From NCBI GenBank assembly GCA_965277445.1, contig CBDICY010000016.1, forward strand, positions 441,604 to 505,603: a DNA stretch of 64,000 nt, in the 5' to 3' direction. Source of the DNA: Saprospiraceae bacterium. GTDB lineage: Bacteria > Bacteroidota > Bacteroidia > Chitinophagales > Saprospiraceae. The notes beneath the pieces were generated by a model that saw only the letters and a list, made by a program, of their open reading frames with translations, was not told where the DNA came from and did no database searches. The position numbers were made by a program, and so were the translations under genes. Shown here one piece after another: positions 18,988 to 41,852 of this stretch. The first letter of the stretch is position 1; each line of letters starts with the position of its first letter.

Positions 18988-19134
18988 AACTGGTAGCATC
19001 CCGATAATTATCGGGATCAGGCTTTCCCGTCACCGACCTTCAGGTCGGAATATTTTCCTTAGAAGATTAAATTATCTATTTAAAAACAGGTCTAAAGACC
19101 TTTGACCCGAAAGCCTAAAGGCTTTACTACCAGT
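18988..19134. repeat. ~145-bp multi-hairpin repeat element, copy A
   Basis: Outer stem ctggtag/ctaccag with nested hairpins (atcccgataattatcgggat, ccgaccttcaggtcgg, ggtctaaagacc, agcctaaaggct). It is homologous to 31289-31405 in inverted orientation. Confidence 0.7.
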
Positions 19135-19140
19135 TAAATC

Positions 19141-24433: not shown

Positions 24434-24943
24434 TTATTGTTTTTGATAAAGCATCGTATACCCATCATAGGGTCTATTATTAAAAAACATAAATTCACTA
24501 CAGAAAATATCCATTTTTAGGTAGGCATGACTTGGTTCTGTTCTAAAAATAAAGGCACTCTGAGGGTCAAAACGATTATTATGTGCTTCTAGTTTCCAAT
24601 CAAATTCAAAGTAGGAATCAATGTCATCACATATAGCCAATATGCCTTTATTTGCTTCCAATGTTAGGGTAATTTTATCTGTTCTATCTGCGCCTACACA
24701 ATTTCCACAACCGTAGGCAATCAACTCCCATTCTCCTATTAAATTAGTTCCTATTTCTTTGGAATCGATGATGCCTGCTTCTAAGCACTCGGTTATGGTC
24801 GGAAACATTGCTTCAATAGAGATAAACTTTGCTCCATCAGCAGTTTTGCAATTATTGAAAATAGCTGTTTCTTCTGCAATATTGTCCTTTTTCTTACATT
24901 GGATAAAACAGAGCAAGCCTATTAAGAATAGTAAATATTTCAT
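24434..24943 (-). CDS. Lipoprotein, paralog 2 of a tandem pair
   Basis: Lipobox LCFIQC, with the C-terminus MDIFCSEFMFFNNRPYDGYTMLYQKQ. Confidence 0.6.
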   Translation of the reverse strand: MKYLLFLIGLLCFIQCKKKDNIAEETAIFNNCKTADGAKFISIEAMFPTITECLEAGIIDSKEIGTNLIGEWELIAYGCGNCVGADRTDKITLTLEANKGILAICDDIDSYFEFDWKLEAHNNRFDPQSAFIFRTEPSHAYLKMDIFCSEFMFFNNRPYDGYTMLYQKQ

Positions 24944-25123: not shown

Positions 25124-26128
25124 TCATTCCTCATAATGCTTATTAGCCCGCCGCAATTTATTCCAAATTCGATCCTTCAAAGCTTGTGGTTTCAAAACAA
25201 TCATCGCATCTCCAAACCCCAAAATCTCTCGTTCCAATTCATAATTAATTTGCACTGTAATGGAAATGATGATCCCTTTATCCTGCCGTTCAATCAATTC
25301 TTGACTAGGATGCAAAGGCTTGGTCAGCACATAAGGCGCATTGCTATGATAAACAAATAGGTGAATAATCTGAGGGCTTAAAGTCTCACTAACGGTTACA
25401 CCAATAACATCTTGGTAAAAATTGCTTAAATCATAATTGGTATTTTCTCGAAAAGGGATATTAGACGTTTCAATGGCTTTCATTCTATCCAATGCCAAGG
25501 TCATCATTCTTGGCGCACCTTGTTTGATGCCTAGTAAAAACCAGCGATTGCGGTATTCTTTTAATAAATAAGGAAAGAAGATAATTTCGCCAGGTTGTCG
25601 AGCCTTAAAGGATTGGTAAGTAATGGATAAAGTTTGCTTTTTCTGAACTGCTTGATAAATGGTATCTAAGTATTCCAAGCCTTGCAAACCTTCATTTTTT
25701 TCAAAATCAATAATGCGTTCTTGTTTATTTTTAGAAGTATAAACCTTGTCTTCTAATTTTTGCACCATGCCACTCAATTCCTGAAAATGCGAAAAGCCTT
25801 TGAATTGCTTTAATATTTCTACGACTTCCGTCAGCCGATTTAAATCTTGGTCGGTCAATGGAATATTAGTGATGCTATATTCAGGGTCTTCGTAAGTGTA
25901 ATATTTTTTATCCACCACAATAATCGGCGCATTATAGCCCAATTTATCCGATCGCATGAGTTGAATATCGGCTTGGACGGTTCTTTTACTCACACCTTTG
26001 TCGATGCCTTCATATTCGTAAAGGGTATCAGAACAAGCATTAATGAGGTCGTCTAAAGTCCATTTTCGGAAGCGATTGCGGAGACAATTGTCGATTGTTC
26101 GGAAGCGGATGAGTGCGTTTTTATTCAT
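25124..26128 (-). CDS. WYL-domain transcriptional regulator (wHTH + WYL + WCX)
   Basis: N-terminal HTH (LIRFRTIDNCL...) and a central WYL-type block NRWFLLGIK. Length 334 aa. Confidence 0.85.
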   Translation of the reverse strand: MNKNALIRFRTIDNCLRNRFRKWTLDDLINACSDTLYEYEGIDKGVSKRTVQADIQLMRSDKLGYNAPIIVVDKKYYTYEDPEYSITNIPLTDQDLNRLTEVVEILKQFKGFSHFQELSGMVQKLEDKVYTSKNKQERIIDFEKNEGLQGLEYLDTIYQAVQKKQTLSITYQSFKARQPGEIIFFPYLLKEYRNRWFLLGIKQGAPRMMTLALDRMKAIETSNIPFRENTNYDLSNFYQDVIGVTVSETLSPQIIHLFVYHSNAPYVLTKPLHPSQELIERQDKGIIISITVQINYELEREILGFGDAMIVLKPQALKDRIWNKLRRANKHYEE

Positions 26129-26164
26129 TGGTTGATTTATTAATTCGTAATCGCCAAATTCATG

Positions 26165-26485
26165 TCATGCGCTGTAATGTTGTAGCCAAACTAATCGACA
26201 AAAAGTTGTGGCTGTTTACTGATATTACTTAACCCCAAGGGGGTGATATATGATAACCTAGGGCGAAAAGCCCTAGGAATAAATCTAATATAATGGTCTC
26301 AAAACCCCAACGGGGTGACATAAATTCATCCTTTATGTCGCTCTTTCAGAGCTTAACCGAGCGAGCGTTATGCTCTAATCATAGGGCTGTGCCCCATGTT
26401 ATTATATTTCACTCCTTTGAAGCTAAGATTAGATAGTCACAATTCTCTGTCGGTTTAATAGTCACAACATTACGCCGCAAGACAT
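26165..26485. ncRNA. Candidate structured non-coding element (~320 nt) bracketed by a long-range inverted repeat
   Basis: tgcgctgtaatgttgta at 26168 pairs with acaacattacgccgca at 26468 (15/17). Inside are ccccaagggggtg and ccccaacggggtg hairpins, the ctagggcgaaaagccctag hairpin, and duplicated agtcacaa. No ORF is present. Confidence 0.4.
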
Positions 26486-26848
26486 TCATTTGGCGGTTAC
26501 TTATGATTTGTTATTCTTTAAAGGAAAATTGGTTTTTTGAAAATAATTACAAACTTTAATAATTTTTTATTTTGGTTTTAAGTATTTGATAGTCAGGGTT
26601 TTAGTAAAAGGATTGGCGATTTTGTAATAAATAGTTTTACGAAAAAACAAAAAAATATTTAACTACGCAAATATACTGCGCACTACCTTCCCAACTTTGT
26701 ATCATCAAACAACAAAAAAGAAATCTACTTTAATAAAAAAGATTTTTTTTTACTCGTTTGGAACTTTATTCAACAAATTAGAATTATTACTCCTCGGAAA
26801 GACCAAGCATTAAAAATCTTGCCTTTCCGAAACCAAATACCAACAATC

Positions 26849-28369
26849 ATGAAATTCAATTTATTAAAAAGAAAGACGAAGCAAATTACTAATTATCAAG
26901 GTGCAAAGGCATGGACGTTAACACCTGAATTAGCATTGTACACAGCAGTTGTGACCGCTAGTTTGACCAATAAATTTTATGAAAAAGAAGGGGAGCGATT
27001 GGCAAGAATCAAACAATTGATTGAAAAGTGTGACCCTACTTTTGTAGCCAAATTAGCCGTTTACACTAGAGAAAAAATGTATTTGCGGTCGATTCCAATT
27101 GTGTTGGTTGTAGAGTTAGCGAAGCTTCATAGCGGAGATAGTTTGGTGAGAAATACCGTGGCAAGAGTCGTCAAAAGAGCCGACGAAATCATGGAATTAT
27201 TGGCTTACTACCAATTTGCGAATGATAGAAAAGACACCAAAAAATTGAACAAATTGTCGAAGCAAATCCAAAAAGGATTAGGTGTCGCTTTCAATAATTT
27301 TGATGAATATCAGTTTGCTAAATATAACCGAGCAGGAACCGTGACCTTAAAAGATGCTTTGTTTTTAGTTCACCCAAAAGCAAAGGATGAAGTGCAACAA
27401 GCGATTTTTAATAAGATAGTGAAAGATACCTTGACCACACCTTATACTTGGGAAGTGGAGTTGTCCAAATTAGGGCAAGAAAAATATCCTTCTGCTACTG
27501 CTAAAGCAAAAGCAGTAACTGCCAAATGGGAAGAATTGATTGATAGCGGAAGATTGGGGTATATGGCATTGATGAGAAATTTGCGAAATATTTTGCAAGC
27601 AGATGTGAGTGCTGACCATATCAAAAAAGTAGCGCGTTTTTTAGGCGATGCAGAAAAAGTGAGCCGTGCGAAACAATTGCCTTTCAGATTCTTATCAGCA
27701 TATAGAGAATTAGAGCAATTGAAATTGCCTTATGTGAATTACTTATTAACAGCATTGGAAAAAGCGGTGAAGGCAAGTGCTAAAAATATTAAAGGATTTG
27801 GTTTGAAAACCAAGGTAGTTTTAGCCTCGGACGTATCAGGTTCTATGTATTCCCAAATTTCTCCAAAAAGCAAAATTCAATGCTATGACATCGGATTAAT
27901 GTTGAGTATGTTGATGAGAAATCGTTCTAAAAATGTCTTCACAGGAATTTTTGGCAATACTTGGGAAATGATGAATTTACCAGCGGATAACATTTTAGCC
28001 AACACGATGAAATTGCGAAAAATGGAAGGTAGAGTTGGTTATTCAACGAACGGCTATAAAGTGATTAACGACTTAATTAAGCGAAAATTGAAAGTTGATA
28101 AAGTCTTAATCTTTACCGATTTGCAATTATGGGATAGTCGAAATGACGGAAATAGTTTGCAAAGTTCGTGGGCAGAGTATACCCAAAAGTATGCGCCAAA
28201 TGCCAAAATTTATTTATTCGACTTACAAGGCTATGGACAATCGCCTTTGCGAATTCCATCCAGAAATGTCCACTTAATTGCTGGCTGGTCGGATAAAGTG
28301 TTTGAGGTATTGGAGGCTATTGAGAATGGGGGAGATGCTATTACTGAAATCAACAATATTACTTTGTAA
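26849..28369 (+). CDS. rsr: Ro60-like ribonucleoprotein (TROVE domain + C-terminal vWA)
   Basis: TROVE-like helical repeat N-terminal region and a C-terminal vWA with the MIDAS motif DVSGSM. Size (~506 aa from MKFNLL) matches bacterial Rsr. Confidence 0.85.
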   Translation: MKFNLLKRKTKQITNYQGAKAWTLTPELALYTAVVTASLTNKFYEKEGERLARIKQLIEKCDPTFVAKLAVYTREKMYLRSIPIVLVVELAKLHSGDSLVRNTVARVVKRADEIMELLAYYQFANDRKDTKKLNKLSKQIQKGLGVAFNNFDEYQFAKYNRAGTVTLKDALFLVHPKAKDEVQQAIFNKIVKDTLTTPYTWEVELSKLGQEKYPSATAKAKAVTAKWEELIDSGRLGYMALMRNLRNILQADVSADHIKKVARFLGDAEKVSRAKQLPFRFLSAYRELEQLKLPYVNYLLTALEKAVKASAKNIKGFGLKTKVVLASDVSGSMYSQISPKSKIQCYDIGLMLSMLMRNRSKNVFTGIFGNTWEMMNLPADNILANTMKLRKMEGRVGYSTNGYKVINDLIKRKLKVDKVLIFTDLQLWDSRNDGNSLQSSWAEYTQKYAPNAKIYLFDLQGYGQSPLRIPSRNVHLIAGWSDKVFEVLEAIENGGDAITEINNITL

Positions 28370-28389
28370 AATAGATACACGTATCGGAT

Positions 28390-28445
28390 ACTTTGAAAGC
28401 CTGCCTGACGGTAGGCAGGTATCTGATACGTTTTCCGAAAAGCTG
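28390..28445 (+). terminator. Intrinsic terminator of rsr
   Basis: acgtatcggatac...cctgcc tgacggt ggcagg...tatctgatacgt followed by ttttcc. This is a long interrupted stem. Confidence 0.7.
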
Positions 28446-28468
28446 AATGAAACAAAAGACATAAGAAA

Positions 28469-28592
28469 AGTGCCGTAGAACAACGTTACTTCGACTCTTA
28501 ATCGGGAGGTTGTAGGTTCGAGTCCTACTATTGCTGGCAACAGCGATATAGCTCAATTGGATAGAGCGCCATGAACGTTATTCGATTTTTGC
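28469..28592 (+). ncRNA. Permuted tRNA-like unit U1 (candidate YrlA-type Y RNA)
   Basis: T-arm gtagg-ttcgagt-cctac, closed acceptor hairpin tattgct-ggcaac-agcgata, ta, D-arm gctc-aattggata-gagc, then a tail. Confidence 0.55.
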
Positions 28593-28679
28593 CTTCTCTT
28601 TTTACAGGATAACAGGATTATGGAGGATTCACAAGATTTAGTAGGACGTAATTTCTATCCTGTAAATCTTGTAATCAAT

Positions 28680-28757
28680 AGTGCCGTAAAGCAATGTTAC
28701 TTCGCTTTGATTGGATCTGTGGGTTCGAATCCCACCATGTCATTGCTTGCTTTTGCC
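28680..28757 (+). ncRNA. tRNA-like unit U2 (head + T-arm gtggg-ttcgaat-cccac + cattgct; no D-arm)
   Basis: Same head motif. It looks like a tRNA 3'-portion. Confidence 0.4.
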
Positions 28758-29040
28758 TATTGGCTTTTGAAAATAAAAAAATGATAATAAAAAGGGTGTC
28801 GTAAAATAGGCTTACTTCGATTTACTTGCGATCACTTGATTGTGGCTTTTATGGAGTTTTGTTTTCCACATCAAAAAGATAGACAAAAAGAAACAGAAAA
28901 TGCTCACTTGTTGGGTAATCCAAAATTGACTATTTGAATTTAACCCCTTTTTAAGAAAAAGAGGTGTCGTCTAAAAGTCTTACTTCGCTAGAAAATCGGA
29001 ACAAACTAGACTTTTAAAATGGTTACCCTCTTTCTAAAAT

Positions 29041-29114
29041 GCTTCCGTGGACAAACTGGTTAAGTCGCTGCTCTTTCACAGCAGAGATTGCGGGTTCGAG
29101 CCCCGTCGGGAGTA
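29041..29114 (+). tRNA. tRNA-Glu(TTC), no encoded CCA
   Basis: Acceptor gcttccg/cgggagt (two G-U pairs), 3-bp D-stem gac/gtc, anticodon arm ctgct-cTTTCac-agcag, T-arm gcggg-ttcgagc-cccgt, discriminator A. Confidence 0.8.
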
Positions 29115-29287
29115 CATCTACAGGATGACAGGATTATGCAAGATTTACAGGATGAAAGTAGGACGTAAATGGAATTAGCAGAATTCTGTTAACTTAGAGA
29201 AATCATACTATATTTTTGAAGTATAGTTGGAAAAAGATGTGTTGTATTTTGTTAAGTTAGTAGAGTTTACTATGTTAGTAGCTTTTA

Positions 29288-29677
29288 ATGAGAAAACTAA
29301 CAAAAATGAAATACGAAAAAATGACGGGAGATATTATTGGTGCAGCCTTTAAAGTACACAATAAACTAGGGTATGGTTTTAAAGAAAAACACTACCAAAG
29401 AGCGATGATTATAGAATTAGAGAAATTGGGATACCATGTAGAAGAAGAGCTGTATTTGAATATTTACTATGACGATAAAGTAATAGGAAAAGATAGAGCC
29501 GATTTATTTGTAAATAAAACCATTTTAGTAGAATTGAAAACACTAAAAGAGTTAGCTAAAAATGATGAAATTCAATTGGTTAATTATTTAAATGCTACAA
29601 GAGTAGAAATAGGGTTATTAATCAATTTTGGGCAGAGTGTAACCGTTAAAAGAAAATTTAGAGATTACAAAAAATGA
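29288..29677 (+). CDS. GxxExxY family protein
   Basis: TGDIIGAAFKVHNKLGYGFKEKHYQRAMIIELEKLGY...VNYLNAT. This family typically sits inside tRNA/rRNA clusters in Bacteroidota. Confidence 0.8.
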   Translation: MRKLTKMKYEKMTGDIIGAAFKVHNKLGYGFKEKHYQRAMIIELEKLGYHVEEELYLNIYYDDKVIGKDRADLFVNKTILVELKTLKELAKNDEIQLVNYLNATRVEIGLLINFGQSVTVKRKFRDYKK

Positions 29678-29746
29678 TGACTTGATTTTATAAATAGGAA
29701 ACCTATCCTGTAAATCTTGAAAAATCTTGTCATCCTGTAAGAGAAG

Positions 29747-29871
29747 AGTGTCGTAGAGCAACGTTACTTCGATTGTCACTCGGGAAGTTGCAGGTTCGAA
29801 CCCTGCCATTGCTAAATATAGTAATGTAGTTCAATTGGATAGAACACCTTGTACGTTATTCGGTTTTTACC
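29747..29871 (+). ncRNA. Permuted tRNA-like unit U5
   Basis: T-arm gcagg-ttcgaac-cctgc, acceptor hairpin cattgct-aaatat-agtaatg (one G-U), ta, D-arm gttc-aattggata-gaac, tail ccttgtacgttattcggtttttacc. Confidence 0.55.
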
Positions 29872-29903
29872 TTTTCTTTTTTGAGCATATAAAAAAAGTC
29901 AAT

Positions 29904-29988
29904 AGTGCCGTAGAGCGATGTTACTTCGATTCAATTGGTTATTATAGGTTCGAATCCTATTCGTTTATAGCACATTGTTCGTTTTTGC
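29904..29988 (+). ncRNA. tRNA-like unit U6 (head + T-arm atagg-ttcgaat-cctat + tail; no D-arm)
   Basis: Head agtgccgtagagcgatgttacttcga, tail ttgttcgtttttgcc. Confidence 0.4.
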
Positions 29989-30013
29989 CTATTGAGTTTT
30001 AAAGACATTAGAA

Positions 30014-30145
30014 AAGTGCCGTAGTAGCATCCTACTTCGATAGGAATTTGGAGGTTACAGGTTCGAGCCCTGTCATTGCTGAGGAATTGGCAATGTAGTG
30101 CAAATGGATAGCACACCAAACAAAGAAGATACTGCGACTTTTGCC
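30014..30145 (+). ncRNA. Permuted tRNA-like unit U7
   Basis: T-arm acagg-ttcgagc-cctgt, acceptor hairpin cattgc-tgaggaattg-gcaatg, ta, D-arm gtgc-aaatggata-gcac, tail ...cttttgcc. Confidence 0.55.
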
Positions 30146-30184
30146 TTTTCTTTTTTGAAAATTTTAAATTGAAAAATTATTAAC

Positions 30185-30259
30185 GGTCTATTGGGGTAAT
30201 GGTTATCCTCCTCGGTTGTCTCCCGAGTGATATGAGTTCGATTCTCATATAGACCGCCA
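30185..30259 (+). tRNA. tRNA-Asp(GTC) with encoded CCA
   Basis: Acceptor ggtctat/atagacc, D-loop aatggtt, anticodon arm ctcgg-ttGTCtc-ccgag, T-arm atgag-ttcgatt-ctcat, then G-CCA. A T at position 37 is unusual. Confidence 0.75.
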
Positions 30260-30338
30260 AACAATTTACAAGATAACAGGATTAATTAGATTAACAGGAT
30301 ATAAGAATCTTGTAAATCTTGTCATCCTGTAAAACAAG

Positions 30339-30506
30339 AGTGCCGTAGAATATAGCGTTACTTCGATTCCAGATCCGTAGGTCGTGGGTTCAAATCCCTC
30401 CATCGCTGCTGTAACACAACTCTCCGAGTTGTGAAATTTTATAAAAAACAGCGATGTAGCTCAGCGGTTAGAGCAACGTAACAGTCGCTTTTCGAATGTT
30501 GCCTCC
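30339..30506 (+). ncRNA. Permuted tRNA-like unit U8 (acceptor hairpin has a long loop containing an 8-bp sub-hairpin)
   Basis: T-arm gtggg-ttcaaat-ccctc (one mismatch), acceptor catcgct...(cacaactc tcc gagttgtg)...agcgatg, ta, D-arm gctc-agcggtta-gagc. Confidence 0.5.
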
Positions 30507-30712
30507 TGTTTTTCTCTTTTAACTTCAACGGGAAGTGCCTTGCAAAGAGGTTCGGTTCGATTCCGAGAAAGAGAACAAGTGCTTTGCACAAAAATGACAA
30601 TCACTTGGTAATGATAGACCAGATGAGGGTTTCTGTATAGCCTCGTAGTGTTCGCCCAGTTGGGTGGAATATGCTGCTACTTTATTGAGTATTGTAACCA
30701 AAATTTGTGTGT

Positions 30713-30955
30713 CGGAGGTTCGATTCCTCCTTCTGGTAATTTACCAGAATAGCTCAGTTGGAAGAGCAACAAATTTCACCCTGTAGGTCGAGGGTTCGAC
30801 TCCCTCCTTAATCTTTGGGATTAAGTAGTTCAGTTGGTTAGAACGACAGATTCTGAATTTCCAGGTTCGAGTCCTGGTTCCGATACGTCGGAATGGCGGA
30901 ATTGGTAAACGCAATGGACATTAAATCCATCATTCTTTGAAGGAGAAAGCCACTT
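30713..30955 (+). ncRNA. Three contiguous permuted tRNA-like modules U9-U11; U11 ends in a tRNA-Leu-like D-arm, anticodon-like hairpin and variable-arm-like hairpin
   Basis: U9: ggagg-ttcgatt-cctcc, ttctggt-aattt-accagaa, ta, gctc-agttggaa-gagc. U10: gaggg-ttcgact-ccctc, cttaatc-tttgg-gattaag, ta, gttc-agttggtta-gaac. U11: ccagg-ttcgagt-cctgg, ttccgat-ac-gtcggaa, tg, gcg-gaattggtaaa-cgc, atgga-cattaaa-tccat, cttt-gaaggag-aaag. Confidence 0.55.
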
Positions 30956-31288
30956 CTTAAAAAATAGGCTAATAACGTTAATGCAAAGGCATTTCTGAGT
31001 TTGTTGCTCTTCGGAAATAACAAACTGATTCGGTAGTTGCTTTGAAGGATTTAGGATACCGTATTGGCTATTTTAGCAGCCTGTTTTTAATTGAAAATGT
31101 TTACCTGCCGATAGGTAGGTAAAATTTAAAAATCAAAATCGAAGAGTAGGACTTCGGTTCTAACTTGAATGTATTGGATTTTTAACTCCATTTTTGTAAA
31201 AATAGCCTGTTTTTGTAAAAGATACTTAATAAATTTTCCGCTGCTATTGAATGGAAATGCGGATGCATTATTTTACAAAAGATTAGAA

Positions 31289-31405
31289 AACTGGTAGAAA
31301 AGCCTTCAGGCTTTCCTGTTCAAGACCTTTAGGTCTGTCATTTCATAAGTAGATTCTTTCTAGCCTAAAGGCTAGTGACGGGAAAGCCTGAAGGCTTTTC
31401 TACCG
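31289..31405. repeat. Multi-hairpin repeat element, copy B (inverted relative to copy A at 18988-19134)
   Basis: 24-bp outer stem ggtagaaaagccttcaggctttcc/ggaaagcctgaaggcttttctacc, with inner hairpins gacctttaggtc and tagcctaaaggcta. Confidence 0.7.
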
Positions 31406-31451
31406 ATGAAAGCATACGACATTTTAAAATCAAATTAGAAAAACAAGTATC

Positions 31452-32549
31452 ATGAAACGTGTACAAATTTATGCTTACAAAGTAGGATTAGTGTTTAGAA
31501 ATGGAAATTTTCTAAAAGTATTGACCGAAGGAAAATATTGGGTCAGATGGGGAGATGAAGTACAGGAATTTAATCTAAATATTCCTTTTATGGCCCCTTG
31601 TGAACTTAATGTTTTATTGGAAGATAAGACATTGGCGGAGCTATTGAACGTCATCATTGTAAAGGATAATGAAATTGGAATGGTCTTTAAAGAAGGCATT
31701 TTTCAAAAGGTATTAATCCCAGGAAGATACGCTTATTGGAAAGGCATTGTCAAATATGACTTCCCTATATTTGATTTGAATGAACTGGAAATTCCAGCAA
31801 GTATTGATAAAAAGTTACTGACCAAACCAAGTTTGTATGGATTCGTTCGGACCAGTATCGTTGAATCTTATGAAGCAGGTTTATTGTTCGTAGAAGGGCA
31901 ATTTGTCAAGGAATTATCTGCGGGCACTTATCGTTTTTGGAATAACGATAAAACAATCAATGTCCTAAAAACCGATTTAAGAGCGCAGCAAGTAGAACTA
32001 GCAGGTCAAGAAATATTGACGAAAGACAAAGCGGCTTTGCGGATTAATTTCTTTGCTCAATACCAAGTTATTGATGTGGAAAAAGCATTGGTAGCTACCA
32101 ATAATTTCAGCAAACAACTTTATATTTTAATTCAGTTGGTGCTACGAGAATATGTAGGCACATTGACTTTGGATGAATTGTTGGCAAAAAAAGAAACAGT
32201 ACAAGGCTATGTCTTAAAAGCGATTGCAGAAAAAGCAGCAGATTTAGGCGTAAAAATCACCGATTGCGGTATCCGAGACATTATCCTACCTGGAGAAGTC
32301 AAAGATATTATGAATCAAGTCTTGGTTGCTGAAAAAAGAGCGCAAGCTAATATTATTACCCGTAGAGAAGAAACAGCTTCTACGAGAAGTTTGCTCAATA
32401 CGGCTAAATTGATGGAGGATAATGAGATGTTATTCAAGCTCAAAGAAATGGAATATGTGGAAAAGATTGCGGAGAAAATTAATACGATTTCTGTTTCTGG
32501 CGGCGGACAAATAGTCGAACAATTGAAGACTATTTTTACGAGAAATTAA
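31452..32549 (+). CDS. SPFH/Band-7 domain protein with three N-terminal partial repeats
   Basis: C-terminal SPFH core (LREYVGTLTLDELL...RAQANIITRREETAS). The N-terminus has three copies of G[LM][VL]F..G.F.K.L..G.Y..W. Confidence 0.75.
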   Translation: MKRVQIYAYKVGLVFRNGNFLKVLTEGKYWVRWGDEVQEFNLNIPFMAPCELNVLLEDKTLAELLNVIIVKDNEIGMVFKEGIFQKVLIPGRYAYWKGIVKYDFPIFDLNELEIPASIDKKLLTKPSLYGFVRTSIVESYEAGLLFVEGQFVKELSAGTYRFWNNDKTINVLKTDLRAQQVELAGQEILTKDKAALRINFFAQYQVIDVEKALVATNNFSKQLYILIQLVLREYVGTLTLDELLAKKETVQGYVLKAIAEKAADLGVKITDCGIRDIILPGEVKDIMNQVLVAEKRAQANIITRREETASTRSLLNTAKLMEDNEMLFKLKEMEYVEKIAEKINTISVSGGGQIVEQLKTIFTRN

Positions 32550-32670
32550 AATAAATTAAATAAGGTTAGTTGAAGCCAATTTGATAGTTCTTTGACTATT
32601 GAATTGGCTTTTTATTTTAAATAATTCAATTAGGTAGGTTCAGTAGTAATTTTATTACTGAGTTGATGAT

Positions 32671-33321
32671 TTAATCTTCATCATCTATAAGAATGGATAA
32701 ATCAAATTTAAAACCTGGTAGCACCGTTTCTCCTGTTAGAATAGCATTCATTCCTTTAATTTTTTCTTGACTACCATCTATTCTGAAAACCCAATGTACT
32801 TTATCAATTGGGTCAATTAGCCAGGCTAGTCGAACGCCATTTTTGATCCAAATATTTTTAATTTTTGCTTTTAAATCTTTGGGTTTGTCTGTTGGACTAC
32901 GCACTTCTACAATAAAATCTGGGACTATTTTGGCAATTTTTTTTCGTTGCCACTTACTAAGTTTTTTGACTTTTTCTTTGCTTATCCAAGCCGCATCGGG
33001 CATTCGTTTTTCTTTGTCAGGTAAGATAAACATAGTTGAAGAGGAAAATGTCTTCCCTGATTTAGCTTTACGGTTCCAGATGGTCAAATCAGCATTGACT
33101 TCATTTTCATGACTTCCTGAATCAAAAGATACTGGGGACATAATAATAAGATTTCCGTTTTTGTCTTGTTCGATTTTTAAATTGGGGTTATGTAAGCAAA
33201 AATCAATAAACTCCTCTTCTGATAAATCGGGAATTAAATGTACTATTTCTAAATCATCAAGTCGTAAAACTCTATTTTTAGATTCCGATTTTTTTAAATT
33301 TATGGTAGAAGTTGCTGTCAT
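32671..33321 (-). CDS. Uma2-family (DUF820) endonuclease
   Basis: PD-(D/E)xK-like blocks PDAAWIS...PDFIVEVRSP...WLIDP. Confidence 0.75.
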   Translation of the reverse strand: MTATSTINLKKSESKNRVLRLDDLEIVHLIPDLSEEEFIDFCLHNPNLKIEQDKNGNLIIMSPVSFDSGSHENEVNADLTIWNRKAKSGKTFSSSTMFILPDKEKRMPDAAWISKEKVKKLSKWQRKKIAKIVPDFIVEVRSPTDKPKDLKAKIKNIWIKNGVRLAWLIDPIDKVHWVFRIDGSQEKIKGMNAILTGETVLPGFKFDLSILIDDED

Positions 33322-33395
33322 TTTAAGCTTAATTTTTTATAAAGATAAGTCTTTTTTACGATAAAAGAAACTTGCGATATACTAACAAATCTATA

Positions 33396-34310
33396 TTAAT
33401 AACTCACCATAAAACGCCCTTCCGTCAAACTAGCTTTAGCACTCCCAGCCAACTCAGCCCCCTCAAAAAAGAAAGTCCCTTCAATAATTTTCACCCCTTT
33501 ATCGTGCTTCGTAACGGTCACTTGCCCACTTTCAGCCCCTAAAAAAGTCATATCATCAATATTGTATTGAGCGCCATAATCTGCAAAACCTGGCGTCCCT
33601 AAACCATAAGTACCTTCCGTAATATCTCTAGGTAAATAAAGCGCAACAGATGGAATACCTGCTGCTGCGGTGCCAACAATCGCAATATTATTCGTAAACG
33701 GGTCAATCATAGCCGTGACTGCTTCTGGTTCAAAGAAAATACTATCGACCTTGACGAAGATGGTATTAAAATCATTTACAGAACCTAATTCTGTTCGGAC
33801 GGGAATTTTATTGAATTGACCGATTTCTATTTTGACTTCTCCTGCGGGTATGGCTCTTGCACCTGTAAAGAAAAATGTACCTGACATCGTTGAATCTTGC
33901 CAATTGAGTTCAGCAATTTCTACTTTTCCACCTTCCATACTAGTATTGGAGGTAAAAGCATTGGAATTATCCCCAAGCGTATAAGCACCTGCACTTAAAC
34001 TATTTTCAGTTAGTTCATAAACACCTTCTCCTTTGTCTTCTAAACTTAGGATAATAATAGAACCATCTGCAGCTAATCCAGAAATACCGATTCTATTGAC
34101 TTGAATTAATGCCCCTGCGGCTGTTGCGGACCAGTCCATGTTATTTATTTGAGCCGTCATTAGACTAGTACTCGTATCCATCGGCATTTCAGTCATTGGA
34201 TTTTCTTCTTCTGGTGGTGCGACATTGGTATCCAAAAAAGCATCATCGCAACTAAATAATAAACTAAAGATGACCAAACTAATGAAAAAGGAAACTAAAT
34301 TTATCCGCAT
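33396..34310 (-). CDS. Lipoprotein, hypothetical
   Basis: Signal peptide with lipobox LLFSCDD. Gly/Thr-rich beta-type sequence. Confidence 0.5.
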   Translation of the reverse strand: MRINLVSFFISLVIFSLLFSCDDAFLDTNVAPPEEENPMTEMPMDTSTSLMTAQINNMDWSATAAGALIQVNRIGISGLAADGSIIILSLEDKGEGVYELTENSLSAGAYTLGDNSNAFTSNTSMEGGKVEIAELNWQDSTMSGTFFFTGARAIPAGEVKIEIGQFNKIPVRTELGSVNDFNTIFVKVDSIFFEPEAVTAMIDPFTNNIAIVGTAAAGIPSVALYLPRDITEGTYGLGTPGFADYGAQYNIDDMTFLGAESGQVTVTKHDKGVKIIEGTFFFEGAELAGSAKASLTEGRFMVSY

Positions 34311-34605
34311 GATTGTTTATTTGTCATTATTGAGAATAGAGAAAAGAGATTTAAACTGGAATTTTGTCAAGGTACTGCTTGTTTTTACTGACCTTAGCCG
34401 TTTTATCTTTATTCTCCCAATGAAATGGTCTCTAATTTCTATTTTATTGAATACTTCCAATACAGCAATAATCCTACTAAAAACCATTTCAAGCAACCTA
34501 TAAACGTTTATTTTTAAAAAATAATTATAAAAAATGAAGGTTTTATTTAACTGCGCAAAATAATTGCGTAGAGGTGTCTTAACTTGCAATCAAAATTAAG
34601 GAACA

Positions 34606-35622
34606 ATGAATATTTCAGCATTAGAAAAGATGATTACCGCAGGTTATGTAAAAAAGCAAAAGCATCCAACTGCGGATTTGTTAATTTATAATTATTCTGA
34701 AACGGCACAGTTTGAGCGAGTTTGGAATGAAGTGACTTTGCAATGCCGAGGTTTGATTTTAGATGGAGAGGGTAGGGTAGTAGCACGTCCGTTTCCAAAG
34801 TTTTTTAATTTAGAAGAGTTGGTTAATAAACCGATTCCAAATTTACCCTTTGAGGTGTATGAAAAAATGGATGGTTCATTAGGGATTAGCTATGTGGTAA
34901 ATGAAGAAATTTTTATAGCCACTAGAGGATCATTTACTAGCGAGCAATCGGTGAAAGCCAATGAATTATTGAATACTAAATATGCTGCTGCCAAAGCCCA
35001 AATGAATCCAGCTGTTACTTATTTATTTGAAATTATTTATCCCGAAAATCGGATAGTATTGGATTATGGACCTCAAGAAATCTTGGTTTTATTAGGCATT
35101 ATAGAAACGGCAACCCGAAAGGAATTGCCTTTAGTGGATATTGGTTTTCCAGTTGTTAAAAAATACAATGGGGTAAAAGATATTCATCAATTAAAAGCCT
35201 TAGCTTATGATAATAAAGAAGGTTTTGTGATTCGTTTTGCTAATAATTACCGTATCAAAGTGAAATTTGAAGAATATGTGCGGATTCACCGAATTATCCA
35301 GCAAGTATCGAGCATCACCATTTGGGAAAATTTAATGGCTGGACAACCTTTTACAGAAATATTAGAACAAGTACCTGATGAATTTTATACTTGGGTAAAA
35401 GTGACCAAAGCAAAATTAGAAGCAGATTATTTAGTCATTGAAAATATTGCGAAAAGTGAGTATAAAGAATTAGCAACACGGAAAGAAACGGCTTTGTATT
35501 TTCAGACTTGTCAATATCCAAAAATTCTTTTTTCTATGTTGGATGGGAAGGATTATTCGGAGACGATTTGGCGGTATATTCGACCTGTTTATGAGCGTCC
35601 TTTTACACACAGGATAACATGA
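34606..35622 (+). CDS. ATP-dependent RNA ligase (Rnl/T4 RnlB-type nucleotidyltransferase, pfam09414-like)
   Basis: Motif I KMDGSLG (KxDG), motif IV EGFVIR, motif V RIKVKF. Length 338 aa, comparable to Rnl2-type ligases. Confidence 0.75.
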   Translation: MNISALEKMITAGYVKKQKHPTADLLIYNYSETAQFERVWNEVTLQCRGLILDGEGRVVARPFPKFFNLEELVNKPIPNLPFEVYEKMDGSLGISYVVNEEIFIATRGSFTSEQSVKANELLNTKYAAAKAQMNPAVTYLFEIIYPENRIVLDYGPQEILVLLGIIETATRKELPLVDIGFPVVKKYNGVKDIHQLKALAYDNKEGFVIRFANNYRIKVKFEEYVRIHRIIQQVSSITIWENLMAGQPFTEILEQVPDEFYTWVKVTKAKLEADYLVIENIAKSEYKELATRKETALYFQTCQYPKILFSMLDGKDYSETIWRYIRPVYERPFTHRIT

Positions 35623-35857
35623 TTATGCTGGATTAACAGGATTTGACGAGCTAGGAGGATGAGCGAGCAAAAAAGCCCAAGAGGACTATTTTGTGAAGTG
35701 AACTGTGAAACAGGTGGGATTGCAAACGGATTCAGACGGATTGAACGGGTAGGAACGGATTTTACATGTGGTTCGTAAAATCTGTTCCAATCAGTTAAAT
35801 CTGTTCCAATCAGTTAAGAATCCTATCTATTTAAAAACCATTATTAAAACTTAAAAC

Positions 35858-36748
35858 GTGAAACAAGTTATTATATTAAGAGGCTTACCAGCTTCAGGAA
35901 AATCAACCTATGCAAAGGATTTAGTGAAAGCGAATCCAAATATGTATAAGCGCATTAATCGAGACGATATGCGAGAAATGTTAGACGGGTATCAGTTTTC
36001 AAAAAGCAATGAAAAATTTGTCAAGAAATTAAGAGATTGGTTGATTGTAGAAGCCTTACGAGATGGAAAACATGTGATTGTGGATGATACCAATTTGTCA
36101 CAGAAAAACATTAATCGCATTAATGATTTAGTCAACGGCTATAAAAAACAAACAGGGCATCAAGTAAATGTGGTGGTTAAAGAATTCACGATTGAATTGC
36201 AGGAAGCAGTAGAACGAGATGCTAAGAGAAAGCGACCTGTAGGTCGCAAGCAAATTGAAAAATTGCACCGTCAATTTTATGCACCTGATGATAAAAAAGG
36301 ACGAGGACCATATTATATGGAACAAGATAAAGCTTTGGCAAAGGCAATTATTTGTGATATAGATGGAACGTTGGCAATCATAGAAGGACGTTCGCCATTT
36401 GATGCTACTTTATGTGAACAAGATGCCTTGAATGAACCAATTGCAAATATTGTCAAGGACGAATACGCAAAAGGGACACATATCTTTTTGTTTACAGGGA
36501 GAAAGGATTCGACCAAAACACAGACCCTAAATTGGTTGAAGAAATTTGAGATTCCATTCCACGAAATCGTCATGCGAAAGCATGAAGATAATAGAAAGGA
36601 TTCCATTGTGAAAACCGAATTTTTTGAGGCGCACATCAAAGACCAGTTCTTTGTGAAATATGTCTTAGATGACCGAAATCAGGTAGTCGATATGTGGCGT
36701 TTGGATATTGGTTTGCCTTGTTTGCAGGTGAATTATGGGGATTTTTGA
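35858..36748 (+). CDS. Polynucleotide 5'-kinase/3'-phosphatase (T4 PseT-like: P-loop kinase + HAD phosphatase)
   Basis: N-terminal Walker A GLPASGKST. The C-terminal HAD motif I ICDIDGTLA and ...DDRNQVVDMWR...VNYGDF match the T4 Pnkp phosphatase organisation. Confidence 0.8.
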   Translation: MKQVIILRGLPASGKSTYAKDLVKANPNMYKRINRDDMREMLDGYQFSKSNEKFVKKLRDWLIVEALRDGKHVIVDDTNLSQKNINRINDLVNGYKKQTGHQVNVVVKEFTIELQEAVERDAKRKRPVGRKQIEKLHRQFYAPDDKKGRGPYYMEQDKALAKAIICDIDGTLAIIEGRSPFDATLCEQDALNEPIANIVKDEYAKGTHIFLFTGRKDSTKTQTLNWLKKFEIPFHEIVMRKHEDNRKDSIVKTEFFEAHIKDQFFVKYVLDDRNQVVDMWRLDIGLPCLQVNYGDF

Positions 36749-41660: not shown

Positions 41661-41852
41661 TTAAACTTGCTTCAAAAGTCTAACTTTATGAAGCATTAAT
41701 CTAATTAATGTTGCTTTTTTTTAAAAAGACCTTATCTTTCGAGTAAAAACTAAAATACGTATTTATACGTTTTAAGAAAGCATTATTTCACTAAATAGGA
41801 TTGTCCGTAGTGATTACATCTTGTAAATCCTGTATAATTCTGTCATCCTGTA

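What the first reader, a model, noticed from the sequence alone, without database searches (positions are those of the whole stretch)
25124..36748. RNA-centred island: WYL regulator, structured element, Ro60 (Rsr), tRNA-mimic array, RNA ligase and Pnkp
A TROVE+vWA Ro60 ortholog sits beside a dense array of tRNA-like RNAs, and within 6 kb downstream there is an Rnl-family RNA ligase with a T4-type polynucleotide kinase-phosphatase (a healing-and-sealing pair). A divergently oriented WYL-domain regulator lies upstream. Known bacterial rsr loci encode Y RNAs and often an RtcB ligase under RtcR control. Here the ligase is the Rnl/Pnkp type and the candidate regulator is a WYL protein. I do not recall either combination being described for rsr loci. 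The extra genes (GxxExxY, SPFH, Uma2 endonuclease) and the real tRNA-Glu and tRNA-Asp inside the array suggest an RNA damage, repair or quality-control module. It could act in tRNA repair after nuclease attack, or it could be phage-derived.
Basis: partly seen in the sequence, partly recalled or inferred. Interest (0 to 1): 0.9.

Follow-up and report, generated by a model that had tools for sequence, protein, structure and literature searches.

The report
WYL-controlled Ro60/Y-RNA RNA-repair island
This is a bacterial RNA damage-response locus in which a Ro60 protein, eight tRNA-mimicking Y RNAs, two real tRNAs, a membrane-scaffold protein with its own tRNA-like RNA, and a phage-T4-type "heal and seal" enzyme pair appear to be switched on together by one regulator; it is a new variant of a known kind of system, not a new kind.

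Summary
The "tRNA-mimic array" is eight YrlA-type Y RNAs, two real tRNAs and a second, SPFH-linked tRNA-like RNA.

Across 80 Bacteroidota rsr loci the conserved core is a divergent WYL regulator, rsr and a same-strand Y-RNA array (median 4 units). The repair cassette varies:
- RtcB in 39 loci.
- Rnl1(+T4-type Pnkp) in 9 of 81 with the window, never together with RtcB. In Flavobacterium it sits in the same slot as RtcB.
- Pnkp-Hen1 in 4 loci.

A palindromic box, ACTGCGCA-N7-TGCGCAGT, precedes rsr, the ligases, RlaP and the SPFH RNA. In the window its core occurs exactly twice, before rsr and before Rnl1. This argues for co-regulation even though two unrelated opposite-strand genes separate them.

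Not part of the system:
- The "structured element" is a MITE-like insertion.
- GxxExxY, Uma2 and DUF6252 are not conserved partners.
- The nearest relatives lack SPFH, Rnl1 and Pnkp at this locus.
- A phage origin is not supported.

Later papers cite Burroughs & Aravind 2016 for WYL regulators in RNA repair. From memory, that survey also covers Ro and SPFH scaffolds and ligase swapping.

Verdict: a new variant of a known kind, of moderate interest.

The parts
25124..26128 (-). WYL-WCX transcription factor, the candidate regulator of the island. The N-terminal HTH is detected only weakly.
   Evidence: PF13280 WYL 48.9 bits and PF25583 WCX 41.5 bits. HTH_11 is only E = 0.035. Best solved relatives are WYL proteins 7u02, 7tzv and 8tp8. 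An ortholog lies divergent from rsr in 51 of 81 loci.
26152..26495 (.). MITE-like insertion with about 32-nt terminal inverted repeats.
   Evidence: Inverted repeats 26152-26183 and 26464-26495. The segment is absent from the closest relative L001. It holds a near-threshold Acido-Lenti-1 match, 36 bits against a gathering score of 37.
26662..26699 (+). Box 1, ACTACGCAAATATACTGCGCACT (core 26666-26680), followed by a Bacteroidetes-type -7-like element CAACTTTG (26692-26699). Proposed WYL operator and rsr promoter.
   Evidence: This is one of only two exact core matches in the 64 kb. The same box lies upstream of rsr in most of the 81 loci, typically 57-106 nt from the start.
26849..28369 (+). 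rsr, the Ro60 ortholog: TROVE ring plus vWA domain with a DxSxS MIDAS motif.
   Evidence: PF05731 108 bits and PF25045 29.5 bits. 4629 homologs at E <= 1e-20. D328, S330 and S332 are invariant in alignment A1.
28460..28605 (+). Y RNA 1: YrlA type, with Ro-binding stem, T arm, acceptor-like hairpin and D arm.
   Evidence: Model R1, 136.1 bits, E = 9e-29. Covariation shown.
28671..28769 (+). Y RNA 2: Ro-binding stem plus T arm only.
   Evidence: R1 54.1 bits, E = 1.9e-10. The minimum-free-energy fold closes the basal stem.
28786..28957 (+). Y RNA 3: Ro-binding stem with a non-tRNA-like interior.
   Evidence: R1 50.9 bits, E = 9.5e-10, full-length model match.
28955..29037 (+). Y RNA 4: minimal stem-only unit.
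   Evidence: 5' motif at 28964. The minimum-free-energy fold is a closed bulged stem. Not listed by R1 in the window, but the orthologous L001 unit at 6899-6983 scores 43.1 bits, E = 1.2e-6.
29041..29115 (+). tRNA-Glu(UUC), with a G1-U72 pair.
   Evidence: ARAGORN. Rfam tRNA 58.6 bits.
29119..29739 (+). GxxExxY (PD-(D/E)XK) ORF at 29288-29677, carried inside an 'acaggat' spacer hairpin with arms 29119-29153 and 29705-29739. It is a passenger, not a conserved component.
   Evidence: PF13366 126 bits and TIGR04256 122.6 bits. The arms are 91% complementary over 35 nt. The ORF is absent from L001 and found in only 1 of 80 loci.
29738..29883 (+). Y RNA 5: YrlA type.
   Evidence: R1 130.9 bits.
29895..30001 (+). 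Y RNA 6: stem plus T arm.
   Evidence: R1 57.7 bits. Fold.
30006..30157 (+). Y RNA 7: YrlA type.
   Evidence: R1 117.5 bits.
30185..30259 (+). tRNA-Asp(GUC), with an unusual U at position 37.
   Evidence: ARAGORN. Rfam tRNA 53.2 bits.
30330..30515 (+). Y RNA 8: YrlA type with a long acceptor-like hairpin.
   Evidence: R1 108.2 bits. This unit was not in the seed alignment.
30702..30950 (+). SPFH-associated tRNA-like RNA: three T-arm / hairpin / D-arm modules, then an anticodon-like stem-loop. It has no Ro-binding stem.
   Evidence: R1 matches cover only model positions 37/41-127. Rfam tRNA hits are partial. A homologous RNA lies 430-740 nt upstream of SPFH in the SPFH loci examined. 26 of 33 pairs show compensatory changes.
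31452..32549 (+). SPFH/Band-7 protein.
   Evidence: PF01145 98.1 bits. Recurs in 10 of 81 rsr loci and in WYL-SPFH-Rnl1-Pnkp loci that lack rsr.
32572..32611 (+). Strong intrinsic terminator. Proposed end of the transcription unit running from rsr through the Y RNAs to SPFH.
   Evidence: 18-bp stem followed by a T tract.
34550..34587 (+). Box 2, ACTGCGCAAAATAATTGCGTAGA (core 34554-34568), followed by a -7-like TAACTTGC. It lies 52 nt before the Rnl1 start.
   Evidence: This is the second of the two exact core matches in the window. Boxes sit 52-72 nt before Rnl1 in L021, L026, L047 and L078, and the four core-positive metagenomic loci L087, L088, L090 and L093 have a core match 52-94 nt upstream.
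34606..35622 (+). T4 Rnl1-type ATP-dependent RNA ligase, the sealing enzyme.
   Evidence: PF09511 69.8 bits. T4 Rnl1 structure 2c5u at E = 4.7e-16, with KMDGS, EGFV and KVKF aligned to the catalytic motifs.
35858..36748 (+). T4-type polynucleotide kinase-phosphatase, the healing enzyme.
   Evidence: PF25109 165 bits and AAA_33 71 bits. Capnocytophaga Pnkp1 4xrp at E = 3e-56 and T4 Pnkp 1ltq at 3e-37. The P-loop GLPASGKST and the DIDGT motif are intact.

Best explanation
The locus is one permutation of a modular RNA-damage regulon found across Bacteroidota.

Proposed regulation (inferred):
- A WYL-domain transcription factor is proposed to bind the palindromic box ACTGCGCA-N7-TGCGCAGT.
- The box sits just upstream of a Bacteroidetes-type -7 promoter element, in place of the usual upstream promoter element.

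Proposed transcription units in the window (inferred):
- Box 1 drives a long unit: rsr, eight Y RNAs interleaved with tRNA-Glu and tRNA-Asp, a three-module tRNA-like RNA, and the SPFH gene. The unit ends at the terminator at 32572-32611.
- Box 2 drives Rnl1 and Pnkp.

Proposed function (inferred):
1. Cleavage of tRNAs or other RNAs by ribotoxins or stress produces a nucleic-acid ligand.
2. The WYL domain senses that ligand and the regulon is induced.
3. Pnkp removes the 2',3'-cyclic or 3' phosphate and phosphorylates the 5'-OH.
4. Rnl1 reseals the break.
5. Rsr-Y RNA particles and the SPFH-RNA particle act as scaffolds or quality-control platforms. Their tRNA-like modules engage tRNA-specific partners.
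6. The co-transcribed tRNAs top up species that anticodon nucleases typically target.

What is shown and what is inferred:
- Shown: gene identities, intact catalytic motifs, RNA structures with covariation, conserved synteny, box positions, and mutually exclusive ligase cassettes.
- Inferred: that WYL binds the box, the direction of regulation, the inducing ligand, the extent of the transcripts, and Rsr binding to these RNAs.
For: Domains and catalytic motifs are established.

Y RNAs:
- 344 model hits at E <= 1e-3 in 80 loci. Every hit listed is on the rsr strand.
- 95.3% of cells are paired, 31 of 32 pairs show compensatory changes, and slid controls give 39-49%.

Synteny:
- WYL is divergent from rsr in 51 of 81 loci.
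- RtcB occurs in 39 loci and Rnl1(+Pnkp) in 9. The two never occur together within 10 kb.
- Flavobacterium loci read Rsr - Y RNAs - RtcB - TatD, or Rsr - Y RNAs - Rnl1 - Pnkp - TatD.

Box:
- The window has only two exact core matches, before rsr and before Rnl1, and they share the flank ATTTAACTRCGCAAA.
- There are 126 core matches in 1.49 Mb of loci. Almost all are intergenic. Most lie 40-100 nt upstream of rsr, RtcB, Rnl1, RlaP or Hen1; others lie at the head of the Y array, ahead of the SPFH RNA, or beside WYL.
- Viral Rnl1 loci have only 3 matches in 0.8 Mb.

Converse test:
- Close Rnl1 homologs found independently show WYL, box, Rnl1-Pnkp or WYL-SPFH-Rnl1-Pnkp arrangements without rsr.

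Other:
- The SPFH RNA shows covariation.
- There is a terminator after SPFH and no convincing one before it.

Literature:
- WYL- and CARF-domain transcription factors are said to sense RNA with cyclic ends and to regulate RNA repair pathways (PMC9503650).
- SPFH is embedded in the P. aeruginosa rtc locus (PMC13086221).
- The Anabaena TrcR regulon joins a tRNA array, rtcB and a slipin (PMC8421152 and PMC10272220).
Against: - In the window, Rnl1-Pnkp is separated from the rsr unit by two opposite-strand genes and a terminator. Linkage here therefore rests on box 2 and on other genomes.
- The nearest relatives (L001, L161-L166) lack SPFH, Rnl1 and Pnkp at this locus.
- Some loci, such as the Chryseobacterium ones, have the box but no WYL gene within 10 kb. 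WYL-box binding is therefore correlative.
- The closest solved WYL relatives are, from memory, DriD, which senses ssDNA. The signal could be DNA damage rather than RNA ends.
- The Y RNAs score below Rfam's YrlA gathering threshold: 32-38 bits against 69.
- No expression data or binding data were available.
Confidence: 0.65

Rival explanations
1. In this genome the Rnl1-Pnkp pair only happens to lie near rsr. It would be an independent, horizontally acquired healing-and-sealing cassette, possibly with its own WYL-type control elsewhere. The rsr/Y-RNA/SPFH unit would then work without a dedicated ligase.
For: - Uma2 and DUF6252 on the opposite strand, plus a strong terminator, separate the two units.
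- The closest relatives have no Rnl1 or Pnkp within about 8 kb of rsr.
- Rnl1-Pnkp with WYL exists as a stand-alone module without rsr.
Against: - The same box, with the same extended flank, precedes both rsr and Rnl1 and occurs nowhere else in the 64 kb.
- Rnl1-Pnkp lies within 10 kb of rsr in 9 of 81 loci from several families. It replaces RtcB in the same slot and never co-occurs with it.
Confidence: 0.2
2. The island is phage-derived or a mobile defence / anti-defence element. T4-like Pnkp and Rnl1, tRNAs and Ro are all known in phages.
For: - The Rnl1 family is abundant in viral contigs: 412 confirmed relatives at 40-54% identity.
- Literature notes Ro/TROVE, Rnl1 and kinases in jumbo phages (PMC7824862).
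- Array content differs between close strains.
Against: - There are no phage structural or integrase genes around the locus. The flanks are metabolic genes.
- The rsr side of the locus and the genes beyond WYL are syntenic in relatives.
- Viral Rnl1 loci lack the box, WYL and rsr, and rarely carry Pnkp: 2 of 80.
- Bacteroidota chromosomal homologs are closer (56-64% identity) than the best viral ones (54%).
Confidence: 0.07
3. The 'array' is only a decaying tRNA gene cluster, made of pseudogenes, with no Ro-related role.
For: - Rfam tRNA gives partial hits at 26-31 bits.
- Many rsr loci carry long arrays of real tRNA genes, some with odd anticodons.
Against: - Each of the eight units has a closing stem with the conserved GUGYCGUAG / UUUUKCC module, which is absent from tRNAs.
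- The order of elements is permuted: T arm, hairpin, D arm.
- 31 of 32 pairs covary across 150 sequences.
- The units are tied to the rsr strand and position.
Confidence: 0.03

Closest known systems
Salmonella rtcR-rsr-yrlBA-rtcBA RNA repair operon (Chen 2013/2014; Hughes 2020, PMC7790460)
   Same: Rsr sits next to same-strand YrlA-type Y RNAs with tRNA-like domains. It is linked to an RNA ligase and a divergently transcribed ligand-sensing regulator.
   Different: - The regulator here is a WYL factor paired with a palindromic box, not the sigma-54 CARF activator RtcR.
- The ligase is ATP-dependent Rnl1 plus Pnkp, not RtcB/RtcA.
- There are eight Y RNAs rather than two.
- Real tRNAs and an SPFH module are included.
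Comparative-genomic scheme of modular RNA repair systems (Burroughs & Aravind 2016, NAR 44:8525). The paper was not readable here. It is recalled from memory and from citations seen.
   Same: It describes a ligase (RtcB or ATP-dependent), end-healing kinase/phosphatase, Rot/TROVE with Y RNAs and SPFH/Band-7 with a tRNA-like RNA as scaffolds, displacement of one ligase by another, and WYL or CARF sensors.
   Different: I could not verify whether that survey describes the Bacteroidota box, the multi-copy Y-RNA arrays, the embedded tRNAs, or the exact rsr-Rnl1-Pnkp combination.
Phage T4 Pnkp + Rnl1 tRNA repair pathway
   Same: The same two enzyme families, with catalytic motifs intact. The same healing-then-sealing chemistry is expected.
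   Different: - The genes are chromosomal and regulated by a cellular box.
- The ligase is 338 aa, and its C-terminal region does not align with the T4 Rnl1 C-domain.
- It scores below the NCBIfam equivalog cut-off: 73.6 bits against 242.
Capnocytophaga gingivalis Pnkp1-Rnl-Hen1 complex (PMC4411300; PDB 4xrp, 4xru)
   Same: Pnkp is closest to Pnkp1 (E = 3e-56). Both are a Bacteroidetes two-gene ligase + Pnkp1 unit.
   Different: - The ligase here is T4-Rnl1 type and does not match the Cgi Rnl chain.
- No Hen1 lies in the 64-kb window. Related loci L081 and L084 do carry a Hen1-like gene between Rnl1 and Pnkp.
Anabaena TrcR translational-stress regulon (PMC8421152, PMC10272220)
   Same: One transcription factor with a shared promoter motif co-regulates a tRNA gene array, an RNA ligase (rtcB) and a slipin/SPFH protein.
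   Different: - The regulator family differs (RHH repressor against WYL).
- The motif differs.
- That system has no Ro60 or Y RNAs, and it is cyanobacterial.

Membership tests
Ro60/Rsr | TROVE (HEAT-repeat ring) domain followed by a vWA domain with a MIDAS DxSxS motif | tested here: met
   PF05731 108 bits and PF25045 29.5 bits, both above their cut-offs. DVSGS is invariant in A1. The NCBIfam Rsr equivalog model scores only 30 bits against a 900 cut-off, so this is a divergent lineage.
Ro60/Rsr | Binds Y RNAs encoded nearby | not testable with these tools
   Only co-location and strand bias can be shown.
YrlA-type Y RNA (Rfam RF02553) | Reaches the Rfam gathering score | tested here: not met
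   Best hits are 32-38 bits against a gathering score of 69.
YrlA-type Y RNA (Rfam RF02553) | The 5' and 3' ends pair into a stem carrying a conserved Ro-binding motif (GNCGAAN0-1G in PMC4201824). The interior has a T arm, an acceptor-like hairpin and a D arm. The RNA is encoded within 4 kb of rsr on the same strand. | tested here: met
   The architecture and covariation are shown. The motif here is GYCGUAG, one base off the published consensus. Units 2, 3, 4 and 6 lack part or all of the tRNA-like domain.
T4 Rnl1 RNA ligase family | Nucleotidyltransferase motifs I (KxDG), IV (EGxV) and V (KxK) | tested here: met
   KMDGS, EGFV and KVKF align to T4 Rnl1 structure 2c5u. PF09511 scores 69.8 against a 28.3 cut-off.
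T4 Rnl1 RNA ligase family | Equivalog-level similarity, including the tRNA-specific C-terminal domain | tested here: not met
   TIGR02308 scores 73.6 bits against a 242 cut-off. The alignment ends at residue 265 of 338.
T4 Pnkp / Pnkp1 | N-terminal P-loop kinase and C-terminal HAD (DxDxT) 3'-phosphatase | tested here: met
   GLPASGKST and DIDGT are present. The protein aligns full-length to 4xrp (3e-56) and 1ltq (3e-37). PF25109 scores 165 bits.
HTH-WYL-WCX transcription factors (PafBC / DriD / BrxR class) | WYL and WCX domains | tested here: met
   PF13280 48.9 bits and PF25583 41.5 bits.
HTH-WYL-WCX transcription factors (PafBC / DriD / BrxR class) | N-terminal winged HTH that binds an inverted-repeat operator | tested here: inconclusive
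   HTH_11 is only E = 0.035, at 14.4 bits against a 25 cut-off. A conserved palindromic box lies beside the gene. Binding was not tested.
RtcR-regulated rtcBA operon | RtcR (CARF, sigma-54 AAA+), RtcB and RtcA | tested here: not met
   No RtcB homolog anywhere in the window by tblastn, and none of the ORFs scanned in or beside the finding matched RtcB, RtcA or an RtcR-type activator. The locus works like this operon but is not a member of it.
Pnkp1-Rnl-Hen1 system | Hen1 methyltransferase and a Pnkp-ligase-domain-type Rnl | tested here: not met
   No Hen1 in the window. The ligase does not hit the Cgi Rnl chain. A hen1 gene elsewhere in the genome cannot be excluded.
SPFH/Band-7 RNA-repair scaffold with tRNA-like RNA | SPFH domain protein next to a tRNA-like ncRNA in an RNA-repair neighbourhood | tested here: met
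   PF01145 98 bits. A conserved tRNA-like RNA lies upstream in the SPFH loci examined, with covariation. Whether it is the RNA described in 2016 could not be checked.

The most novel reading that the evidence does not exclude
The long transcript that starts at rsr is an inducible battery of tRNA mimics and spare tRNAs.
- Many paralogous Y RNAs, and the SPFH-linked chained tRNA-like RNA, act as decoys or adaptors for tRNA-targeting nucleases and tRNA-repair enzymes.
- The embedded tRNAs replace the species that anticodon nucleases destroy. Those embedded singly across loci are mostly Glu-UUC, Lys-UUU, Asp-GUC and Asn-GUU.
- All of this is switched on by a WYL sensor of broken nucleic acid through one phylum-wide operator.

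If so, this would be a previously uncharacterised RNA-level SOS-like regulon in Bacteroidota.
Probability: 0.25. Interest if true: 0.8.

Novelty: new variant of a known kind. Interest (0 to 1): 0.55.

Why it matters
Bacterial Ro60/Y-RNA biology has been studied mainly in Deinococcus, Salmonella and Mycobacterium smegmatis. The function of the tRNA-like domain of Y RNAs is still open.

This locus and its 80 relatives offer a testable handle on that question:
- A defined operator-like box and a candidate WYL regulator.
- Natural swaps of ligase chemistry in one slot: RtcB, which joins 3'-P to 5'-OH, against Pnkp plus Rnl1, which join 3'-OH to 5'-P.
- Arrays of up to about ten structurally graded Y RNAs, ranging from a full tRNA mimic to T-arm-only to stem-only.
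- Embedded tRNAs of the kinds that anticodon nucleases attack.

The analysis also yields a covariance model for Y RNAs that the Rfam YrlA model scores below its threshold, at least for the units in this window. It further yields a second conserved RNA tied to SPFH proteins, whose role in RNA repair is unknown.

Tried and rejected
- Rfam at gathering thresholds finds only tRNA matches. YrlA appears only below threshold, so I built my own model.
- Burroughs & Aravind 2016 and the 2020 Annual Review on bacterial Ro60 are not held in the library. The supplements of Chen 2014 are not held either. Prior description of Bacteroidota Y RNAs or of WYL-rsr pairing could therefore be judged only indirectly.
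- The upstream 'structured element' was rejected as a regulatory RNA. It is a MITE-like insertion absent from L001.
- GxxExxY, Uma2 and DUF6252 were rejected as system components. They occur in 1, 0 and 0 of the 80 loci.
- My first guess for the 3' end of Y RNA 3 (about 28875) was wrong. The model places it at 28957.
- Several ARAGORN 'tRNAs' with odd anticodons, for example in L022, L025, L032, L051 and L054, lie inside Y RNAs. I discounted them as tRNA-like modules.
- The sigma-70 promoter scan is uninformative for Bacteroidota: 43 sites found against 37 expected.
- Prophage origin was rejected.
- I did not resolve whether loci with the box but no nearby WYL gene, such as Chryseobacterium, encode the regulator elsewhere.

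Full report
**1. Observation**

- WYL+WCX regulator, 25124-26128 (-).
- Ro60/Rsr with TROVE and vWA domains, 26849-28369.
- GxxExxY nuclease-fold ORF, 29288-29677.
- SPFH protein, 31452-32549.
- Uma2, 32671-33321 (-).
- DUF6252, 33396-34310 (-).
- T4 Rnl1-type ligase, 34606-35622.
- Kinase + HAD-phosphatase Pnkp, 35858-36748.

ARAGORN and Rfam confirm tRNA-Glu(UUC) at 29041-29115 and tRNA-Asp(GUC) at 30185-30259. Rfam also gives two partial tRNA hits near 30.8 kb. With relaxed thresholds Rfam's YrlA model hits six places between 28.5 and 30.9 kb. These score only 32-38 bits against a gathering score of 69.

**2. What the array is**

Eight units begin with (A)GUGYCGUA...UUACUUCG, at 28470, 28681, 28796, 28964, 29748, 29905, 30016 and 30340. 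All are on the rsr strand.

I fetched 80 rsr loci from across Bacteroidota. I aligned 21 full-length units taken from the window and 18 of those loci. RNAalifold then predicted the following structure:
- A basal stem formed by the two ends.
- A conserved G-C / Y-R pair step.
- An upper stem.
- A T arm, a variable acceptor-like hairpin and a D arm.

26 of 32 pairs showed compensatory changes. This is the YrlA architecture described in PMC4201824. The motif here is GYCGUAG, where the published motif is GNCGAAN0-1G.

A covariance model built from this alignment gave these results:
- In the window it finds nine matches, all on the + strand between 28460 and 30855.
- In the 80 loci it finds 344 matches at E <= 1e-3, and every hit listed is on the rsr strand.
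- On the 150 best matches, 95.3% of cells are paired and 31 of 32 pairs have compensatory changes. Slid controls give 39-49% paired. That alignment is fitted to the model, but the signal is far larger than such a bias could produce.
- The 5' motif occurs at 1.10 per kb in the 3.5 kb after rsr, and at 0.05-0.06 per kb elsewhere. The median is 4 units per locus and the maximum is 10.

The window's units are graded:
- Y1, Y5, Y7 and Y8 are full tRNA mimics.
- Y2 and Y6 keep only a T arm.
- Y3 and Y4 have no tRNA-like part.

Multi-copy Y-RNA arrays are therefore a lineage-wide feature. The window's array of eight is at the high end.

**3. A second RNA, tied to SPFH**

Two model hits, 30702-30773 and 30774-30855, match only the T-arm / hairpin / D-arm part and lack the Ro-binding stem. 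A chain of T and D arms lies 430-740 nt upstream of the SPFH gene in the SPFH loci examined.

An alignment of nine such RNAs folds as T1 - hairpin - D1 - linker - T2 - hairpin - D2 - anticodon-like stem-loop. 26 of 33 pairs show compensatory changes. The window's copy has three modules, spanning 30702-30950.

From memory, Burroughs & Aravind 2016 named SPFH/Band-7 as a scaffold with 'a novel tRNA-like molecule'. I could not open that paper. An SPFH gene embedded in the P. aeruginosa rtc locus is documented in PMC13086221.

**4. Gene neighbourhoods**

I ran tblastn of the window's proteins against the loci, clustered the ORFs, and ran Pfam on cluster representatives.

The core is a divergent WYL gene (51 of 81 loci), rsr, and the Y-RNA array. 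On the rsr strand the repair cassette varies:
- RtcB in 39 loci.
- Rnl1, usually with T4-type Pnkp, in 9 of 81 counting the window (one, L018, is a weak 26-28% match).
- Bacterial Pnkp + Hen1 in 4 loci.
- RlaP nucleotidyltransferases in 10 loci.
- SPFH in 10 loci.
- RNase T-like exonucleases in 11 loci.

Rnl1 and RtcB never co-occur within 10 kb. Some Flavobacterium genomes read Rsr - Y RNAs - RtcB - TatD and others read Rsr - Y RNAs - Rnl1 - Pnkp - TatD. That is a clean displacement of one ligase chemistry by the other in one slot.

GxxExxY is present in only one other locus. Uma2 and DUF6252 are present in none.

**5. A shared operator-like box**

The sequence upstream of rsr is ATTTAACTACGCAAATATACTGCGCACT. 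The sequence upstream of Rnl1 is ATTTAACTGCGCAAAATAATTGCGTAGA. The two share a palindrome.

In the window:
- The core CGCAAA-N5-TGCG occurs with no mismatch only at 26666 and at 34554. These lie 183 nt before the rsr start codon and 52 nt before the Rnl1 start codon.

Across the 81 loci:
- There are 126 matches to a relaxed form of the core (CGCA[A/T]-N6-TGCG), almost all intergenic.
- Most lie 40-100 nt upstream of rsr, RtcB, Rnl1, RlaP or Hen1.
- Others lie immediately after the rsr stop at the head of the Y array in Flavobacterium, ahead of the SPFH RNA, or 40-70 nt from the WYL start.
- The extended consensus is ACTGCGCA-N7-TGCGCAGT. It is followed after roughly 10-14 nt by a ...CTTTG element resembling the Bacteroidetes -7 box.

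An independent search started from Rnl1 found two arrangements that lack rsr:
- WYL, box, Rnl1-Pnkp.
- WYL-SPFH-Rnl1-Pnkp.

In four of these loci (L087, L088, L090, L093) a core match lies about 52-94 nt before Rnl1. Viral Rnl1 loci have 3 core matches in 0.8 Mb and no WYL or rsr.

The simplest reading is a WYL-controlled regulon in which rsr/Y RNA, SPFH/RNA and the ligase cassette are interchangeable modules. That WYL binds the box is an inference from co-occurrence and palindromy. Chryseobacterium loci have the box but no WYL gene within 10 kb.

**6. Enzymes**

The ligase aligns to T4 Rnl1 (2c5u, E = 4.7e-16). KMDGS, EGFV and KVKF sit at motifs I, IV and V. Its C-terminal part does not align, and it falls below the NCBIfam equivalog cut-off.

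Pnkp aligns end to end with Capnocytophaga Pnkp1 (4xrp, 3e-56) and with T4 Pnkp (1ltq, 3e-37). The P-loop and DxDGT motifs are intact.

The Capnocytophaga system uses a different ligase and a distant hen1 gene (PMC4411300). No Hen1, RtcB or RlaP is present in the 64-kb window.

**7. Limits for this particular genome**

The closest relative is L001, with Rsr 94% identical. Six contigs carry a WYL protein 97% identical to the window's. These relatives share the WYL - rsr - array arrangement, but the content of the array differs from the window's:
- They have an extra 263-aa ORF after rsr.
- They lack Y7 and tRNA-Asp.
- They lack GxxExxY.
- They have a deletion from 30776 to 32479 that removes most of SPFH.
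- To the right they have glycosyltransferases instead of Uma2, DUF6252, Rnl1 and Pnkp.

In the window a strong terminator follows SPFH at 32572-32611, and two opposite-strand genes intervene before Rnl1. The link between rsr and Rnl1-Pnkp in this genome therefore rests on box 2 and on the recurrent synteny seen elsewhere. It does not rest on a shared operon.

**8. Comparison with the literature**

| Known | Source |
|---|---|
| Rsr with YrlA-type Y RNAs in the RtcR-controlled rtcBA operon | PMC7790460, PMC4201824, PMC3854526 |
| WYL and CARF factors sense RNA with cyclic ends and regulate RNA repair; Burroughs & Aravind 2016 cited for WYL factors | PMC9503650 and PMC7824862 |
| T4 Pnkp/Rnl1 and Capnocytophaga Pnkp1-Rnl-Hen1 | PMC4411300 |
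| Co-regulation of a tRNA array, rtcB and a slipin by TrcR in Anabaena | PMC8421152 and PMC10272220 |

I could not find the following in the readable literature:
- The specific box.
- The multi-copy graded Y-RNA arrays.
- The embedded tRNAs.
- The Rnl1-Pnkp-for-RtcB swap next to rsr.

**9. Verdict**

This is a real, coherent RNA-repair and quality-control island. It is a new variant of a known kind. I score interest at 0.55.

Noticed in passing
L011 12033-18025; L021; L023; L034; L048; L053; L062; L067; L072; L079; L080: About a quarter of the Bacteroidota rsr loci examined carry long same-strand arrays of 9-23 tRNA genes, interleaved with or next to the Y RNAs. Some arrays hold tandem repeats (five tRNA-Met in L011) or odd anticodons (Ser-ACU, Asn-AUU, Phe-AAA). 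They resemble the stress-induced L-arrays described in cyanobacteria.
   Followed up: partly
window 29041-29115 and 30185-30259; L001, L003, L015, L029, L062, L070, L072, L075: tRNAs embedded singly in the Y-RNA arrays are mostly Glu-UUC, Lys-UUU, Asp-GUC and Asn-GUU, about 14 of 18. These are the classic targets of anticodon nucleases. The window's tRNA-Asp has a pyrimidine (U) at position 37, and its tRNA-Glu has a G1-U72 pair.
   Followed up: partly
orthologs of window 25124-26128, e.g. P0145, P0157, P0161, P0188 (Rufibacter, Adhaeribacter, Pontibacter); L020, L025: Many Cytophagales orthologs of the WYL regulator are proteins of about 579 aa with a C-terminal PhyH-type Fe(II)/2-oxoglutarate dioxygenase domain (PF05721) fused to WYL-WCX.
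   Followed up: no
window 26152-26495: A MITE-like element with 32-nt terminal inverted repeats is inserted between the WYL gene and the rsr promoter box. It is absent from the closest relative. It contains hairpins that nearly reach the Rfam Acido-Lenti-1 threshold, 36 bits against 37.
   Followed up: yes
window 28603-28671, 29119-29168 / 29705-29739, 30263-30335, 35609-35642, 41814-41855: A dispersed 'ACAGGAT...ATCCTGT' hairpin repeat separates Y RNAs. One copy carries the GxxExxY ORF in its loop. Other copies lie just after the Rnl1 stop codon and at 41.8 kb. It may be a REP-like or RNA-processing element.
   Followed up: partly
window 31293-31404, with partial copies at 19017-19135: A long, near-perfect hairpin of about 110 nt lies between the SPFH RNA and the SPFH gene. 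Part of it is repeated 12 kb upstream. Its function is unknown.
   Followed up: no
window 23934-24413 and 24434-24943 (- strand): Two tandem paralogous ORFs of 159 and 169 aa, 43% identical to each other, lie next to the WYL gene and have no Pfam match. The relative L001 has only one of them.
   Followed up: no
L081 and L084, about 11.8-13.6 kb: In some metagenomic loci a Hen1-like gene, 29-30% identical to bacterial Hen1, sits between Rnl1 and Pnkp. It is followed by TatD and RlaP. This is an Rnl1-based counterpart of the Pnkp1-Rnl-Hen1 system.
   Followed up: no
L009, L010, L022, L024, L031, L036 and others, about 9260-9880 (- strand): In Flavobacterium a conserved 204-aa protein with no Pfam match lies between the WYL gene and rsr, 39-40 nt from the box in most of these loci.
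   Followed up: no
L001 6076-6867: The closest relatives carry a 263-aa ORF of unknown function immediately after rsr. The window lacks it.
   Followed up: no
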